Positions 1-11,609 of a stretch of 11,609 bases of DNA are shown in pieces. Position numbers and translations under genes: made by a program. The notes under the pieces were generated by a model. That model searched no databases and had not been told where the DNA came from. It saw only the letters and a program-made list of their open reading frames with translations. Every line of letters starts with the position of its first letter. The stretch's first letter is position 1. Where the stretch lies: IMG/VR virus record IMGVR_UViG_2695420600_000007. One strand, given 5' to 3'. The DNA comes from a virus. Taxonomy: Duplodnaviria > Heunggongvirae > Uroviricota > Caudoviricetes.

Positions 1-36
1 TAACAGATGTCTGGAAATATAGGGGCAAATCCATTC
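1..36. repeat. Left copy of a perfect 36-bp inverted repeat (partner at 11570..11605)
   Basis: Positions 1..36 (TAACAGATGTCTGGAAATATAGGGGCAAATCCATTC) are the exact reverse complement of 11570..11605, checked base by base. The match is lost on the inward side of both copies; its outward extent is cut off by the window. Confidence 0.9.
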
Positions 37-478: not shown

Positions 479-3055
479 ATGAGTGATATTTTCTCAGGAA
501 GAGAATTATCAGTACAGTATAATGCTGATATTGGTAACAGAACACCACAGGGAGCAGGCAATGTAGTAATTAAACAGATTAATACTTTTCCAACCTTAAC
601 AATAAATTCAGAAGCAAATAATTTTGAAACGTATGATAGTGATTACAGGACAGTACTACTATCTGATAAATCAGTAGCACCATTTGATATTGTAGTTAAC
701 TACCTACCTGATGATCCTACACATCAATTCTTGGATAATGCCGCTAAGTCTCAGCAGCTTTTCCAGATCATCATTCAGTACCAGATGAATAAGGATGAAA
801 ATACCATTACTTATGCGATGGTGAATGGTTATATCACCTCTTATAAGTTGGACGGTGATAAAGGTTCAGTAGTAACCAAGGCATACAGTTTTGCCCCACA
901 TGATGTGATCGCACGTGCAATGACCATTAACGCACTATCGCCAATCTATCAGGGGGACTACGGTTTAGGTTCGAACACTACGGATGTACCTCAGTACTCA
1001 CCATCAGTACCTACGGGTAACAGCTTCATCAAAGTACCATCATCTCAAGCAGGCAATCCTGCCGGGGCGGATCTGATGGGAGTAGGGCTTGTAGATGGCA
1101 CTACTGTAAGTTCTCTTGCGATGACAAAGACGGGTACTCTAAGTATCTATGCAAAGAACGCTACAACCGCCTGGACACGCATATATACCGCTACACAGAT
1201 GGACGGGCGATACGTACCCCTTACACGTACCATCAACGGCCATGCACTCACGGCCAATTTAGTACTGAACAGTGAAGATACAGGTTCAGTACCTGATACA
1301 CGTACTGTGAATGGTAAGCCTCTAAGTGAGGATGTAGTACTTACCAGTACTGATACCGGCTCTGTACCAGATACACGGACAGTTAATGGTCATGTACTCA
1401 GTGAAGATATAGTACTGAGTAGTGAAGATACAGGTTCAGTACCTGATACACGTATGGTCAACGGTCATGTACTCAGTGAGGATGTAGTACTTACCAGTAC
1501 TGATGTTGGCTTAGGGAAGGTTACAGATGATGCCCAGCTTACGATAGCAGGTAATCTAAGTGATCTGGGGGACGTGGAAGAAGCACGTATTAACCTTGCT
1601 GTTTACTCAATGGATGAAGTAGATGCAGAGGTAACGGCTTTAGCTGACAGTATTACTTCCCTTGATTCCGCTTCCATGAAGAAAGCGAGTAACCTTTCTG
1701 ATCTATCCAGTCTCTCTACAGCACGTACTAACCTACAGGTGAACCGTTTGACTCAGGGTGCTACGTACACCGATCTGATGAGTAATGACCTGACTAACCG
1801 TATCCGAATTCAGGATAACGGGGCATGGGGTGCAAGTACTGGTACTGGATGGATTGCTTTAGGTATAGGTCAGGGGGGGACAGGGGCTACAGATGCTTTG
1901 AGTGCTCGCCTAAACTTTCAGGTGGATCGCTTTAATCAAGGTAGTAATTTAACAACTATTAAATCCGCTGATTCTTCCGCTGCATTAGTGGTTTATGATG
2001 GAGGGCAATGGGGTTCAGCTACATATATTGCGGGTGCTTTCACTGGCTGGAAAGCATTAGCAATTCCGCAGGGCGGTACTGGTGTTAAGACTCAGGCTGA
2101 GTTATGGCCTGCGATTCGTCCTACGGGTGCAACTTCTTTAGCAGGAGATCCTGTCTCTGATTCTGACGCGACTACCAAACGCTGGGTTGAAAACTTGCTG
2201 AGTAGTCGTACTTCAGTTAGTCCTCAATGGGATGTTATTGCTTCTTCCCCTTCCTCTACGGCAATTGGTAGTTATGTAACTGGAGGGCGTATTCGTTCGA
2301 TATGCAACATTGGTACATCAACTGAAATATCTGGTGGTTTTCGGGTTGGTAAAACGATGGGACAGACTGGACAGGCTGATCTCACCCTTTTTATTTCTGA
2401 AAATGGTGCAGAGGATAAACTATGGGGGCTAAAAGGGCCGACTGGAACGATCCTAACTGATGTTCAATCAGGATGGATGACTAATACCGCTGTTTCGGGA
2501 CCGACAGATGCCAATACCATCACCTTTAACGGTATGTATGCAGGGCCAGGTGACTCAGGTATTAACTATAGTGAAAAATATTCCCCTTTATTGCACATGC
2601 AAAGACACCCAGGGGCAAATCGCTCTCAGCTTCAGATAGACGGTGGTGGTACTTTAAGAGTACGAGGCGGGAACGGTACAACATGGTTTGGATGGTTAGT
2701 AATGCAAGCTCAAGGTACATCAGGTCGTGAGTTTAAAAGAGACATAACTCCAGCAAATCCAGTTGAAGCATTAGATCGGATAATGTCACAAGATTTAGTA
2801 ACGTTTATCTACAAGGATGATGAACAAGAAAGGGTTAGGTTTGGTGTTATCGCCGAAGATGCTGAGTTGACTGCTCCGCAGTACATTAAGCATGATGAAG
2901 AAACAGTTGAAATAGAAGGGGAGATTGTCACTCGTGATCATCCACGTGTTGATTTAAATCCAATAGTGATGGACTTGATGGGAGCTATTCAAGCCCAACA
3001 AGAAGAAATTAATCAGCTAAAAGATTTAGTACAACAGCTATTAAATAATAAATAA
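479..3055 (+). CDS. Tail fibre protein (858 aa): N-terminal domain paralogous to the tube protein, tandem fibre repeats, and a C-terminal intramolecular chaperone (peptidase S74-like) autoprocessing domain
   Basis: Long ORF with RBS AAAGGA at 465..470. The N-terminus MSDIFSG...NTF...VNYLPDD...GDKGSVVTKAYSFA aligns with the 3114..3587 protein (MAMDIFSG...NTF...VNYLPDN...GDKDEVVTKTFTLA). Four tandem 25-aa repeats (SVPDTRTVNG..LSEDVVLTSTDTG) resemble phage tail-fibre repeats. NLSDL...AR.NL and GGTG motifs are fibre-like. The C-terminus SGREFKRDITPANPVEALDRI...FIYKDDEQERVRFGVIAEDAE matches the S-D/G-x-R-x-K-x-(N/D)-I pattern of endosialidase-type chaperone domains. Confidence 0.85.
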   Translation: MSDIFSGRELSVQYNADIGNRTPQGAGNVVIKQINTFPTLTINSEANNFETYDSDYRTVLLSDKSVAPFDIVVNYLPDDPTHQFLDNAAKSQQLFQIIIQYQMNKDENTITYAMVNGYITSYKLDGDKGSVVTKAYSFAPHDVIARAMTINALSPIYQGDYGLGSNTTDVPQYSPSVPTGNSFIKVPSSQAGNPAGADLMGVGLVDGTTVSSLAMTKTGTLSIYAKNATTAWTRIYTATQMDGRYVPLTRTINGHALTANLVLNSEDTGSVPDTRTVNGKPLSEDVVLTSTDTGSVPDTRTVNGHVLSEDIVLSSEDTGSVPDTRMVNGHVLSEDVVLTSTDVGLGKVTDDAQLTIAGNLSDLGDVEEARINLAVYSMDEVDAEVTALADSITSLDSASMKKASNLSDLSSLSTARTNLQVNRLTQGATYTDLMSNDLTNRIRIQDNGAWGASTGTGWIALGIGQGGTGATDALSARLNFQVDRFNQGSNLTTIKSADSSAALVVYDGGQWGSATYIAGAFTGWKALAIPQGGTGVKTQAELWPAIRPTGATSLAGDPVSDSDATTKRWVENLLSSRTSVSPQWDVIASSPSSTAIGSYVTGGRIRSICNIGTSTEISGGFRVGKTMGQTGQADLTLFISENGAEDKLWGLKGPTGTILTDVQSGWMTNTAVSGPTDANTITFNGMYAGPGDSGINYSEKYSPLLHMQRHPGANRSQLQIDGGGTLRVRGGNGTTWFGWLVMQAQGTSGREFKRDITPANPVEALDRIMSQDLVTFIYKDDEQERVRFGVIAEDAELTAPQYIKHDEETVEIEGEIVTRDHPRVDLNPIVMDLMGAIQAQQEEINQLKDLVQQLLNNK
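1211..1510 (+). repeat. Four in-frame tandem 75-bp (25-codon) repeats inside the fibre gene
   Basis: Repeat units at 1211..1285, 1286..1360, 1361..1435 and 1436..1510. Perfect 34-nt direct repeats at 1271..1304 and 1421..1454, and perfect 30-nt direct repeats at 1325..1354 and 1475..1504, give a 150-bp super-period. Confidence 0.85.
2720..3052 (+). other. C-terminal intramolecular chaperone / autoproteolytic domain of the fibre (S74-like); predicted cleavage immediately before Ser748 (codon 2720..2722)
   Basis: Motif QAQGT|SGREFKRDI followed by ALDRI and FIYKDD..RVRFGVIAEDAE, then a C-terminal helical heptad-like tail (IQAQQEEINQLKDLVQQLL). Assigned from recalled family motifs, not from a search. 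Confidence 0.6.
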
Positions 3056-3113: not shown

Positions 3114-3587
3114 ATGGCTATGGATATTTTTTCCGGTGCTAACCTTACTGTAGAAGTAGGTTCAAGTGCTGGTAAAACAGTTGCTACTGACTTTGTAGAA
3201 GTACCAGAGGTAAACACCTTCAGTACTTCAGGCTTTGAAAGTACTGTAATTAGCGTAAAAACATTCAATAATGCTTATGATCGTAAGCTATTGGGTACTA
3301 AGTCAATCCCGGACATTTCTCTTGCAGTTAACTACTTACCAGATAATGCAGTACATCAGAATTTAGAACAACTTGCAGACGATCAGAAACGTTGTCAGGT
3401 AAAACTAAGCTATTTTACCGATGCAACTAAAAAAGAAGGTTTCTTTGTAATTTATACCTGCTTTGTTTCAAGTACCACTATCGGTGGTGATAAAGATGAA
3501 GTAGTAACTAAGACTTTCACCCTTGCAGTTGATGGTGAAGCAATTGATTCAGGTCTGATTACTCCAAAACCAGAATCGGGCGAATAA
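3114..3587 (+). CDS. Probable major tail (tube) protein, 157 aa
   Basis: Sits directly upstream of the chaperone pair and tape measure gene, the position of lambda gene V. Size and the N-terminal G-x-x-L-x-V-x-V-G pattern are typical of siphovirus tube proteins. RBS AAGGA at 3100..3104. Followed by a hairpin terminator, as is common for highly expressed tube genes. Confidence 0.6.
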   Translation: MAMDIFSGANLTVEVGSSAGKTVATDFVEVPEVNTFSTSGFESTVISVKTFNNAYDRKLLGTKSIPDISLAVNYLPDNAVHQNLEQLADDQKRCQVKLSYFTDATKKEGFFVIYTCFVSSTTIGGDKDEVVTKTFTLAVDGEAIDSGLITPKPESGE

Positions 3588-3638: not shown

Positions 3639-3938
3639 ATGAATTTAAACGAATTGAAGAAAAAACTACAACCAGAATTAAAACCACATGAAGTAATGGG
3701 TGAAATCATCTTTATTCATCGTCCAAATGGTCAGGATTTCCAGAAATGCACTGATGTGGCTAAAACTCTAATCCTATGTGTAAAAGATGAAAATGGTGAT
3801 CCTATCTTCGCAGAAGAAGATATTGATGGACGAATTAATGTTAACTCTATTGATTTTGTAATCCAGAATGAAATTTACTCAGCAATTATTGCTTTAATCA
3901 ATACTGCGAAACCTGTAGATGAAGTAGAAAAAAAGTAA
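3639..3938 (+). CDS. Tail assembly chaperone, gpG-like
   Basis: Small acidic protein directly upstream of the tape measure gene. ORF track frame begins at TTG 3627; the preferred start is ATG 3639, with GGAG at 3629..3632 and a 6-nt spacer. Ends ...VDEVEKK with stop at 3936..3938. Confidence 0.7.
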   Translation: MNLNELKKKLQPELKPHEVMGEIIFIHRPNGQDFQKCTDVAKTLILCVKDENGDPIFAEEDIDGRINVNSIDFVIQNEIYSAIIALINTAKPVDEVEKK

Positions 3939-4333
3939 GAGGTGATATCGAATTAAAGTACTTTTGTAAGATGGTTAACAAAAGAGGCTTATCACCTGAA
4001 GAATACTTTAGTTTAGATCCTGATGTACTCAATATGCTTATGATCTACGATACTTTTATAGAACCATCCGGTACGCAGATTGAAATGATGAAACATGCGT
4101 ACCAGTGTTACTACACCACTATCAGTAATGGCAACCTAACACCAGAAGCAAGGAAAAGTATCAAGGTACAGGATTTTGATTTTCTTGATGTGCTTAGTGA
4201 TAGTACTAAGAGTACTTCAGAGAAAGCTGAAGAAAGAAAATTAAAAACTAAAGAGGCTCAATCCAATGATATTAAATCTATAGGGGAGTTAATTAAATCT
4301 CAGGTATTAGGAAAGAAAAAGAATGGCAAATAA
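3639..4333 (+). CDS. Tail assembly chaperone frameshift fusion product, gpGT-like (-1 shift at 3929..3935; the T-part frame ends at 4333)
   Basis: The downstream ORF (frame of 3971..4333) lies in the -1 frame relative to the G-like ORF and is open back to 3923, overlapping the slippery site. Its stop overlaps the tape measure start at 4323. Confidence 0.6.
3929..3935 (+). promoter_or_regulatory. Programmed -1 ribosomal frameshift slippery heptamer A_AAA_AAG
   Basis: In the zero frame the codons are gaA AAA AAG then TAA. A 7-A run at 3928..3934 is followed by G. The -1 frame is open from 3923 and continues into the 3971..4333 ORF, matching the conserved G/GT arrangement. Confidence 0.7.
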
Positions 4334-6546: not shown

Positions 6547-7119
6547 TTAGGGATTTTCCGTGTGATAAGACAAATATTGTGAAAGAGAAGATGAAAGGGT
6601 ATAGAGATTGTAATACTCTTCCCGCAATAATTTAACTTTAGGTGGTGAGTATTTAATATTGTATGCAAGCTGTGTTGAAAGAGTACGTAATCTCGATAAT
6701 GAATAATAACTCTTTACGATGGCATCTACTTCTTTTTTTGGGAGTGATGCTAATTTTTCTAATTGGGAATAATATACATCATCATGCAAATAAGAAACGG
6801 CAGTTGCTACTCTTTTAATAGCTTCTGTATCTTCAGTTGGAAGAGGAATACATATTTCATATGTGCCTAACACCTGAGACTCATCGCCACCAGTAGCAAG
6901 AGCTAAAAGGTTATTGTTGATTTCGCTCAATAAGATTACACGCATCTTAAAAACATCATCTGAACTTTCTTTCCATTTATCATATGCGTTATAGCCTATT
7001 TGGCCTGCAAATAACAACATAGCAACGATGACGGATGCAGCCTGCCAATCAAGCCTGTTAAAAAAAATACGAATCGAGGTTTTTAAATAAATAAAGAAAG
7101 AAGATATTCGAGGTAACAA
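6547..7119 (-). CDS. Hypothetical protein with a hydrophobic N-terminal segment; reverse-oriented accessory gene (moron) inside the tail module
   Basis: The only long ORF in the 584-bp gap between the tape measure and gpM-like genes, on the opposite strand. The region is visibly more AT-rich than its neighbours. ORF track start is TTG 7119; in-frame ATGs lie at 7020 and 6945, so the true start is uncertain. The N-terminus WQAASVIVAMLLFAGQIGY is hydrophobic. No recognisable family motif. Confidence 0.5.
   Translation of the reverse strand: MLPRISSFFIYLKTSIRIFFNRLDWQAASVIVAMLLFAGQIGYNAYDKWKESSDDVFKMRVILLSEINNNLLALATGGDESQVLGTYEICIPLPTEDTEAIKRVATAVSYLHDDVYYSQLEKLASLPKKEVDAIVKSYYSLSRLRTLSTQLAYNIKYSPPKVKLLREEYYNLYTLSSSLSQYLSYHTENP

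Positions 7120-8301: not shown

Positions 8302-11609
<3,308 letters not shown>

What the first reader, a model, noticed from the sequence alone, without database searches (positions are those of the whole stretch)
1211..1510. Near-identical tandem 75-bp coding repeats in the fibre shaft
Four in-frame 25-codon units carry perfect 30-nt and 34-nt direct repeats spaced 150 bp apart. Such repeats are substrates for slipped-strand or recombinational gain and loss of units, which would change fibre length or receptor reach without a frameshift. They also tend to be collapsed or expanded by assemblers.
Basis: seen in the sequence. Interest (0 to 1): 0.35.

Follow-up and report, generated by a model that had tools for sequence, protein, structure and literature searches.

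The report
Tail-fibre shaft repeats, one unit short
Four diverged 25-codon repeats in the fibre gene of a decayed Shigella sonnei prophage are real, and this contig has one unit fewer than the usual five, through either a genuine in-frame slippage deletion or an assembly collapse; this kind of variation is ordinary for phage fibres.

Summary
Window 1211-1510 is four in-frame 75-nt units, with exact 34-nt and 30-nt repeats 150 bp apart. The units are not near-identical (63-83% nt identity).

The window is a Shigella sonnei draft contig bounded by IS2 ends. It carries the tail module of an IS-riddled, defective prophage. The repeats encode 25-residue modules (family consensus YVPLTRTVNGKALSSNIVLTKTDVG). 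They sit between an N-terminal tail-tube-like domain and a T5/DT57C-like fibre shaft that ends in an S74 chaperone.

The common S. sonnei allele, including finished genomes, has five units. The window and one other allele have four. The difference is an exact 75-bp in-frame loss bounded by a 37-nt direct repeat, and it occurs on two different lineage backgrounds.

Whether the window's loss happened in the cell (replication slippage) or in a short-k assembler cannot be settled without reads. I put it at about 50:40 for the cell.

Any effect on fibre length or reach is untested, and moot in this dead prophage. Interest is low to moderate. The tube-fibre fusion is the less expected feature.

The parts
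479..3055 (+). 858-aa ORF: a tail-tube-like N-domain, a second beta domain, the 25-residue repeat array, a T5/DT57C-like shaft, and an S74 intramolecular chaperone
   Evidence: The exact protein is found on S. sonnei contig CXCN01000131.1.
479..931 (+). Tail-tube-protein-like domain (aa 1-151), a paralogue of the neighbouring tube protein
   Evidence: 31% identity, E 2e-20, to ORF 3114-3587. phrog_158 major tail protein, 1.4e-16. AF2 pLDDT about 90. Foldseek matches lambda gpV, NF5, 80alpha, YDC107 and Sf11 tube proteins, E about 2e-7.
1016..1198 (+). Second beta-rich domain (aa 180-240). It may correspond to the Ig-like C-domain of lambda gpV.
   Evidence: pLDDT 84-90. Full-length gpV hits span 251-263 aligned columns. 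The domain assignment is inferred.
1211..1510 (+). The finding: four in-frame 75-nt / 25-residue units. They equal U1, U2, U3 and U5 of the five-unit S. sonnei allele.
   Evidence: 75/75 identity to U1, U2, U3 and U5 of strain 53G
1271..1304 (+). 34-nt exact repeat, copy 1 (U1/U2 junction)
1421..1454 (+). 34-nt exact repeat, copy 2 (U3/U5 junction)
1325..1354 (+). 30-nt exact repeat, copy 1 (3' part of U2)
1475..1504 (+). 30-nt exact repeat, copy 2 (3' part of the last unit)
1410..1446 (+). Single remaining copy of the 37-nt sequence TAGTACTGAGTAGTGAAGATACAGGTTCAGTACCTGA. It occurs twice, 75 bp apart, in the five-unit allele. This is the junction of the one-unit loss.
   Evidence: gene alignment
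1511..2098 (+). Downstream shaft with other short motifs (NLSDL...ARxNL, QGGTGA) shared with T5-like L-shaped tail fibres
   Evidence: 8hqz_d stretches 1-2
2720..2869 (+). Peptidase_S74 intramolecular chaperone domain with the Ser748...Lys753 pair
   Evidence: PF13884, 34.2 bits against a cutoff of 22. 8hqz_d (DT57C LtfB), E 2e-40. Residues read. The dyad's role rests on my own knowledge of the family.
3114..3587 (+). Ordinary 157-aa tail tube protein, the paralogue of the fibre's N-domain
   Evidence: PF08813, 34 bits against a cutoff of 24.2
1..33 (-). IS2 terminal sequence (contig boundary)
11573..11609 (+). IS2 terminal sequence that interrupts the J-like central fibre gene (contig boundary)

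Best explanation
The 300-bp array encodes four 25-residue structural modules. They form the proximal shaft of a presumably trimeric tail fibre that ends in an S74 chaperone. Unusually, the fibre's N-terminus is a paralogue of the phage's own tail tube protein.

The modules are old, diverged duplicates kept alike at protein level. Short stretches of exact DNA identity (30-37 nt) have been left by exchange between units. Those stretches act as direct repeats, across which whole units are lost or gained in frame.

The window shows one such event. Compared with the standard five-unit S. sonnei allele, it lacks exactly unit 4 (75 bp), and the junction lies inside a 37-nt direct repeat. The most likely cause is replication slippage, or unequal exchange between sister chromosomes, in the bacterium. 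The loss happened independently on two lineages.

Shown here: the repeat anatomy, the four-versus-five polymorphism, the junction, the direction of the change (five to four), and the variation in unit number across the family.

Inferred: the in vivo mechanism, the trimeric shaft role, and any effect on fibre length. In this genome the change is probably neutral, because the prophage is broken by IS elements.
For: Anatomy and frame.

Five units are the norm:
- The 883-aa alleles P0122 (131 contigs) and P0123 (101 contigs) include the finished genomes HE616528 (53G) and CP026802.
- The four-unit alleles are P0121 (the window) and P0130 (2 contigs).

The difference is one unit:
- The gene alignment across eight loci differs only by the 75-bp gap, a 165-bp duplication and two SNPs.
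- The window's units match U1, U2, U3 and U5 at 75/75.
- The 37-mer is present twice, 75 bp apart, in the five-unit allele and once in the window.
- Unit 4 carries substitutions found in no other unit, so five to four is the parsimonious direction.

Two lineage backgrounds:
- The window shares C2606 and the left IS2 junction with five-unit loci L001-L003 and L016-L019.
- L008 shares T2606 and the absence of that IS2 with five-unit 53G.

Longer-term turnover:
- Three units in a relative that is 95.6% identical at nucleotide level over the N-terminal-domain coding region.
- 0-7 units in 101 representative homologues.
- 16 units in a Cedecea prophage.

Patchy identity: P about 0.001.

Fibre context.

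Defective prophage: IS elements in the terminase and J genes.
Against: No reads were available, so the four-unit state is known only from draft short-read assemblies.

The window contig extends only 33 and 37 nt into IS2, and L008 only 41 nt, against about 92 nt in L003. This suggests assembly with k-mers about as long as the 37-nt repeat, where a one-unit loop can be skipped. The same 'deletion' on two backgrounds is also what a systematic artefact would give.

Every finished genome examined has five units.

The array region of the structure model has low confidence (pLDDT 41-71). The shaft role therefore rests on context and on the motif's presence in other phage fibre genes.
Confidence: 0.55

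Rival explanations
1. Assembly artefact. The isolate really carries five units. A short-k de Bruijn assembly (with scaffolding or gap closing) skipped the 75-bp loop created by the 37-nt exact repeat and produced a clean in-frame 'deletion'.
For: - The contig ends reach only 33 and 37 nt into IS2 in the window and 41 nt in L008, against about 92 nt in L003. That implies small k, close to the 37-nt repeat.
- Four-unit alleles are rare: 3 contigs, against more than 230 with five units.
- They are seen only in drafts of one accession series.
- They appear on both SNP/IS backgrounds.
- Finished genomes have five units.
Against: - Other assemblies with accessions in the same protein-accession series (CSO.., CSE.., CSN..) give five units.
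- Two separate contigs, of different lengths, share the T-background four-unit allele. That fits inheritance.
- Slippage between 37-nt repeats 75 bp apart is expected to be about as frequent as all point changes in the gene. Only about 3-4 SNP alleles are seen. The rate argument rests on my own knowledge.
- The k value could not be established.
Confidence: 0.4
2. Four units are ancestral, and the five-unit allele arose by duplication of one unit.
For: Tandem duplication by the same slippage mechanism is possible in principle. A 165-bp tandem duplication did arise elsewhere in this gene.
Against: - Unit 4 differs from unit 3 at 10 of 75 nt and from unit 5 at 18 of 75. Some of its bases are found in no other unit. 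A recent duplication would be identical to its source.
- Five units occur on both lineage backgrounds and in the great majority of contigs.
Confidence: 0.03
3. The array is a programmed contingency locus. Frequent, reversible changes in unit number tune host range, as in phase-variable surface genes.
For: Units are in frame, and unit number varies among relatives. The same loss occurs twice in a clonal species.
Against: - Units are only 63-87% identical, with 3-10 synonymous codon differences per pair.
- After the loss, the longest repeat at 75-bp spacing is 17 nt.
- More than 95% of contigs carry one allele length.
- The prophage is IS-disrupted, so nothing selects for host range here.
Confidence: 0.02

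Closest known systems
L-shaped / lateral tail fibres of T5-like phages (T5 pb1; DT57C LtfA/LtfB, PDB 8hqz)
   Same: - A C-terminal Peptidase_S74 intramolecular chaperone (PF13884; 8hqz_d E 2e-40, with 113.8 bits over aa 742-853).
- A conserved 'RPxGxTxLAGDPV..TKRWVE' segment and short shaft motifs.
   Different: T5-type fibres dock non-covalently on a collar around a tube-like ring (literature read; own knowledge of T5 p132/p140). Here the fibre's first 150 residues are themselves a tube-protein paralogue. The 25-residue unit array was not detected in 8hqz by sequence.
Repeat-built fibre shafts whose length is set by unit number (adenovirus fibre 15-residue repeats; repeated motifs in T4 long fibres) - own knowledge
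   Same: Short, in-frame, diverged pseudo-repeats. The number differs between relatives while the termini are conserved.
   Different: The unit is 25 residues with its own consensus. No solved structure or Pfam model matches it. No functional link between unit number and receptor use has been tested here.
RecA-independent deletion between short, closely spaced direct repeats (replication slippage, as studied in E. coli by Lovett and others) - own knowledge
   Same: An exact loss of one repeat period (75 bp), with the junction inside a 37-nt perfect direct repeat. The event recurs.
   Different: The mechanism is inferred from the junction only. No rate or recA dependence was measured, and an assembly artefact would leave the same junction.
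Tail tube proteins with C-terminal decorations (lambda gpV Ig-like domain; SPP1 gp17.1* FN3 extension)
   Same: An N-terminal tube fold followed by a small beta domain (review PMC8718954).
   Different: Known decorations are single small domains. Here a roughly 600-residue fibre with an S74 chaperone follows. It is encoded by a separate paralogous gene upstream of the ordinary tube gene, not by a frameshift.

Membership tests
In-frame tandem coding repeat subject to slippage (VNTR-like) | Head-to-tail units whose length is a multiple of three | tested here: met
   75-nt period, four units in frame with ORF 479-3055
In-frame tandem coding repeat subject to slippage (VNTR-like) | Units near-identical at DNA level | tested here: not met
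   63-87% pairwise nt identity. Only local exact patches of 17-37 nt.
In-frame tandem coding repeat subject to slippage (VNTR-like) | Copy number differs among close relatives by whole units | tested here: met
   858-aa against 883-aa S. sonnei alleles differ by exactly one unit. This is seen in assemblies only; reads were not examined.
In-frame tandem coding repeat subject to slippage (VNTR-like) | Heterogeneity within a population or read set (size ladder) | not testable with these tools
   No read data or PCR available
Peptidase_S74 (intramolecular chaperone) trimeric fibres and spikes | C-terminal S74 domain above the Pfam threshold | tested here: met
   PF13884, 34.2 bits against a cutoff of 22, aa 749-797; 8hqz_d E 2e-40
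Peptidase_S74 (intramolecular chaperone) trimeric fibres and spikes | Ser...Lys catalytic pair at the cleavage site | tested here: met
   S748-G-R-E-F-K753 aligns with SGIEYK of DT57C LtfB. The role of the dyad is from own knowledge.
Peptidase_S74 (intramolecular chaperone) trimeric fibres and spikes | Trimerisation and autocleavage | not testable with these tools
   Only a monomer model was made
Siphovirus tail tube protein (lambda gpV-like fold; PF08813 relatives) | Tube-protein fold and sequence relationship | tested here: met
   31% identity, E 2e-20, to the adjacent PF08813 tube protein. Foldseek E about 2e-7 and target TM 0.6-0.69 to gpV, NF5, YDC107 and Sf11. phrog_158. Pfam itself gave no hit on aa 1-244.
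Siphovirus tail tube protein (lambda gpV-like fold; PF08813 relatives) | Assembly into hexameric rings of the tail | not testable with these tools
   Needs virion structure or mass spectrometry
Curated phage tail-fibre repeat families (Pfam PF03406 Phage_fiber_2, PF22337 Phage_fiber_rpt) | HMM match at or above the gathering score | tested here: not met
   PF22337 scored E 1.8, 8.7 bits against a cutoff of 27. PF03406 was not reported, even for the 16-unit homologue. The motif does occur in annotated fibre genes of Vibrio, Aeromonas and Microbacterium phages.
GldM second domain (PF21601) | Ig-like domain of about 98 residues matched over its length | tested here: not met
   Only profile positions 22-75 match. 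The score is 21.6 bits in the whole protein (below the 24.4 cutoff) and 28 bits on the excised array. The model shows no Ig-like domain there. Judged a pattern match to the repeat.

The most novel reading that the evidence does not exclude
The repeat array may be the adjustable spacer of an undescribed class of side fibre that is covalently built into the tail. A tube-protein paralogue (aa 1-244) would take a place in a hexameric tube ring and carry a trimeric, S74-matured fibre. One ring would then bear two fibres, and the number of 25-residue units (0-16 in relatives) would set how far they reach.

The family is about 125-140 clusters at 50% identity. It is found almost only in Enterobacterales prophages and is essentially absent from isolated phages (1 weak hit in 50,697 records). 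Annotation pipelines do not recognise it.
Probability: 0.3. Interest if true: 0.55.

Novelty: new member of a known kind. Interest (0 to 1): 0.3.

Why it matters
For the finding itself, the value is mostly practical. It gives a concrete case where a phage fibre gene differs between isolates of a clonal pathogen only by whole repeat units. It also shows that such a difference in a short-read draft cannot be trusted without reads. Anyone using this prophage region for S. sonnei typing, or for comparing fibre genes, should treat unit number as unstable or unreliable.

Biologically, the family-wide range of 0-16 units fits modular tuning of fibre length, which is not surprising for phage fibres.

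The tube-fibre fusion noticed on the way would matter more. If the fusion protein sits in the tail tube, it is a different way of attaching side fibres from the docking rings known in T5, lambda, 80alpha or TP901-1.

Tried and rejected
1. Close DNA matches. Megablast of the ORF or the whole window against phages, E. coli complete genomes and plasmids found only the IS2 ends. Shigella is not in those collections, so the population comparison came from the protein-cluster and contig look-ups instead.

2. Known repeat families.
- Pfam and NCBIfam gave nothing convincing for the 25-residue unit.
- The GldM_2nd hit was rejected as a partial pattern match.
- ThiS-like, Beta-APP and similar hits are noise.

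3. PDB sequence search with a 16-unit array returned only marginal flavivirus E domain III hits (E 0.06 or worse), judged spurious.

4. A two-unit (150-bp) super-repeat was rejected. In the five-unit allele the same patches are 225 bp apart, and relatives have 1, 2, 3 or 5 units.

5. Deriving the assembler's k from how far the contig reaches into IS2 gave inconsistent values (33, 37, 41). It supports only 'short k', not a number.

6. Five literature searches for a tube-protein/fibre fusion found no precedent (papers read). The library is incomplete, so this is weak negative evidence.

7. The AF2 monomer model gives no reliable structure for the array (pLDDT 41-71).
Full report
**1. The observation**

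Starting at 1211, four consecutive 75-nt units lie in frame with the long ORF 479-3055. They translate to:
- YVPLTRTINGHALTANLVLNSEDTG
- SVPDTRTVNGKPLSEDVVLTSTDTG
- SVPDTRTVNGHVLSEDIVLSSEDTG
- SVPDTRMVNGHVLSEDVVLTSTDVG

A 34-nt stretch (1271-1304) recurs exactly at 1421-1454. A 30-nt stretch (1325-1354) recurs at 1475-1504. Both are 150 bp apart. Tandem Repeats Finder reports period 75, 3.0 copies and 75% matches.

Shuffles of the window never give an exact repeat longer than 16 nt. No competing ORF of 25 codons or more lies on either strand inside the array.

The title's 'near-identical' is wrong. Units are 63-83% identical in DNA, with many synonymous differences. Given that divergence, the exact patches are longer than expected (P about 0.001 by shuffling mismatch positions). 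This points to past exchange between units rather than recent duplication.

**2. Where the window comes from**

The exact 858-aa protein is encoded on one public contig, CXCN01000131.1 of Shigella sonnei assembly GCA_001251255.1. That contig is the window.

Both ends of the window are IS2 termini (1-33 and 11573-11609).

The genes form a siphovirus tail module:
- the fibre ORF
- a 157-aa tail tube protein
- an assembly chaperone
- a tape measure protein
- a distal tail protein
- a J-like central fibre cut by IS2

In finished S. sonnei genomes the same prophage also has IS elements in its terminase and J genes. It is a decaying prophage of low G+C (40%).

**3. What the repeat-bearing protein is**

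Residues 749-797 are a Peptidase_S74 intramolecular chaperone. The C-terminal third resembles the L-shaped tail fibre protein LtfB of T5-like phage DT57C (PDB 8hqz, E 2e-40). So the protein is a fibre.

Its N-terminus is unexpected. Residues 3-139 are 31% identical (E 2e-20) to the tube protein encoded next door. They match the PHROG family for major tail proteins.

In an AlphaFold model built on 83 homologues, these residues fold with high confidence into the tube-protein fold. The best structural matches are lambda gpV and the NF5, 80alpha, YDC107 and Sf11 tube proteins. BFVD gives the same answer. A second confident beta domain covers residues 180-240.

The repeat array begins right after it, at residue 245. 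It is modelled with low confidence, as expected for a monomer model of a trimeric shaft. The array is therefore the proximal part of the fibre, directly distal to its anchor.

**4. The unit is a family-wide module**

A profile built from the units finds them at the same position in homologues across Enterobacterales. The consensus is YVPLTRTVNGKALSSNIVLTKTDVG.

Unit number varies:
- Most homologues have one unit, and others have none, two or three.
- Tandem runs of four or more units are rare: 3 of 101 representative clusters.
- A Cedecea lapagei prophage has sixteen units.

The motif also occurs in annotated fibre genes of Vibrio, Aeromonas and Microbacterium phages. No Pfam or NCBIfam model covers it. 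The marginal GldM_2nd hit is a partial pattern match.

**5. The key result: copy number within S. sonnei**

The 90%-identity cluster holding the window's protein has 92 members.
- The common full-length alleles are 883 aa: P0122 on 131 contigs and P0123 on 101 contigs. They include the finished genomes of strain 53G (HE616528) and CP026802, and they carry five units.
- Two 858-aa alleles exist: the window's (P0121) and P0130 (two contigs; locus L008).

Aligning the gene from eight loci shows only four differences in the whole gene:
- a 75-bp gap in the window and L008
- a 165-bp tandem duplication in one lineage
- a nonsense change in that same lineage
- one C/T polymorphism (His/Tyr)

The window's four units are identical (75/75) to units 1, 2, 3 and 5 of the five-unit allele. 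In that allele a 37-nt sequence occurs twice, exactly 75 bp apart, at the 3' ends of units 3 and 4. The window has one copy, at 1410-1446.

Unit 4 carries substitutions found in no other unit. The four-unit form therefore derives from the five-unit form, not the reverse.

**6. Two backgrounds**

The window carries C at 2606 and an IS2 junction at position 33/34. It shares both with five-unit loci L001-L003 and L016-L019.

L008 carries T at 2606 and lacks that IS2, like five-unit 53G. Otherwise the window and L008 differ at a single base in 11,539 nt.

The same one-unit loss therefore sits on two lineages. Either the deletion arose twice, or the same error was made twice.

**7. Real or artefact?**

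Points for a real deletion:
- An exact loss of one period, with its junction inside a 37-nt direct repeat, is the classic product of replication slippage between close direct repeats (own knowledge of the E. coli literature).
- In a gene that shows only three or four point variants across hundreds of isolates, two such events are not surprising.
- Two separate contigs share the T-background allele.
- Other assemblies in the same accession series give five units.

Points for an artefact:
- Every finished genome examined has five units.
- The window contig reaches only 33 and 37 nt into IS2 (L008: 41 nt), whereas another draft reaches about 92 nt. That implies assembly with k-mers about as long as the 37-nt repeat, a situation in which a 75-bp loop can be dropped.

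I cannot decide this without reads. I put about 0.5 on a real deletion and 0.4 on collapse.

**8. What it does**

Shown:
- modules of 25 residues in variable number
- in-frame change by whole units
- patchy exact identity that supplies the direct repeats

Inferred:
- The modules extend a trimeric shaft, so unit number sets the distance between the anchor and the distal receptor-binding part.

Neither trimerisation nor any effect on adsorption was testable. In S. sonnei the prophage is defective, and in one lineage the gene itself is broken by a nonsense codon (TGG to TGA at window 2106) plus a 165-bp duplication. The change here is most likely neutral decay.

The window's allele still holds substrates for a further 150-bp (two-unit) in-frame loss between the 34-nt or 30-nt repeats. 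At one-unit spacing it now has only a 17-nt repeat.

**9. Comparison with what is known**

Repeat-built fibre shafts with variable unit number, and slippage between direct repeats, are both well known. The finding is a new example, not a new kind.

It is not a contingency locus. The units are too diverged, and more than 95% of contigs carry one allele length.

The closest characterised proteins are the T5/DT57C lateral fibres, through the shared S74 chaperone and shaft motifs. Those dock on a separate collar.

The covalent tube-domain anchor was not found in five literature searches. The reviews and structures read describe only small Ig/FN3 decorations on tube proteins, or non-covalent fibre docking.

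The N-domain family comprises 142 clusters at 50% identity among 1.84 billion representatives. The domain is almost always at residues 1-244 of proteins of 700-1560 aa. The gene order is conserved: fusion gene, then the short tube gene. It has one weak relative among 50,697 phage records.

**10. Verdict**

Copy number does vary by whole units among close and distant relatives, but the repeats are not near-identical.
- The functional consequence is untested and moot here.
- The window's own unit count may be an assembly product.
- Interest is low to moderate (0.3). The tube-fibre fusion is the item worth a separate look.

Noticed in passing
window 479-1210 (with 3114-3587): The fibre protein's first ~244 residues are a tail-tube-protein paralogue plus a small beta domain: 31% identity to the adjacent tube protein, and Foldseek matches to lambda gpV and others. 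The family has about 140 clusters, almost all long fusions in Enterobacterales prophages, and the N-terminal domain is not recognised in the source annotations seen. No precedent was found in the literature searched.
   Followed up: partly
window 1-33 and 11573-11609: Both ends of the window are the same IS2 terminus in opposite orientation. The contig is bounded by IS2 copies. The right-hand copy truncates the J-like central fibre gene (8698 onward). The left-hand copy lies in the 107-aa gene upstream. The short reach into IS2 (33 and 37 nt) hints at a short-k assembly.
   Followed up: partly
window 1676-1840 (L001 11273-11602): In another S. sonnei lineage (P0002, 15 contigs, including a 4.98-Mb contig) this 165-bp segment (55 codons) is tandemly duplicated. 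The junction has no microhomology at all. Several draft contigs of other isolates break at its boundary.
   Followed up: partly
window 2104-2106: The same lineage has TGG to TGA (Trp543 to stop). This splits the gene into 622-aa and 286-aa ORFs, so the fibre gene is being pseudogenised in part of the species.
   Followed up: partly
window about 1225-1229: Partial proteins P0133 (ends ..RYVPLT; on a contig of 1191 nt, which equals the distance from the left IS2 to this point) and P0125 (starts TINGHALTAN; 13 contigs) suggest a further IS insertion. It would sit exactly at the first repeat unit in a sub-lineage. This is inferred from contig ends only.
   Followed up: no
window 2606: A C/T polymorphism (His710/Tyr710; His735/Tyr735 in the five-unit allele) splits S. 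sonnei alleles into two large groups. It served as a lineage marker.
   Followed up: yes
window 6547-7119 (minus strand): A 190-aa ORF lies on the opposite strand between the tape measure and distal tail protein genes. It matches only phrog_3829 (unknown function, E 1e-5). It has a moron-like placement and is conserved in the S. sonnei loci.
   Followed up: no
window 3639-3938 and 3971-4333: The tail assembly chaperone ORF and the following 120-aa ORF, which overlaps the tape measure start, look like a G/GT pair. They are separated by about 30 nt, and no slippery site was looked for.
   Followed up: no
L013 (PQ671644.1, Escherichia phage DCP80) 8001-12374: This is the only phage record with the N-domain. 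It is filed under Straboviridae (141 kb), but the region is a siphovirus-like module with two consecutive N-domain fibre genes upstream of a short tube gene. The record may be chimeric.
   Followed up: no
whole window: G+C is 40%, well below the roughly 51% of the Shigella/E. coli chromosome (own knowledge). This fits a foreign origin for the prophage.
   Followed up: no
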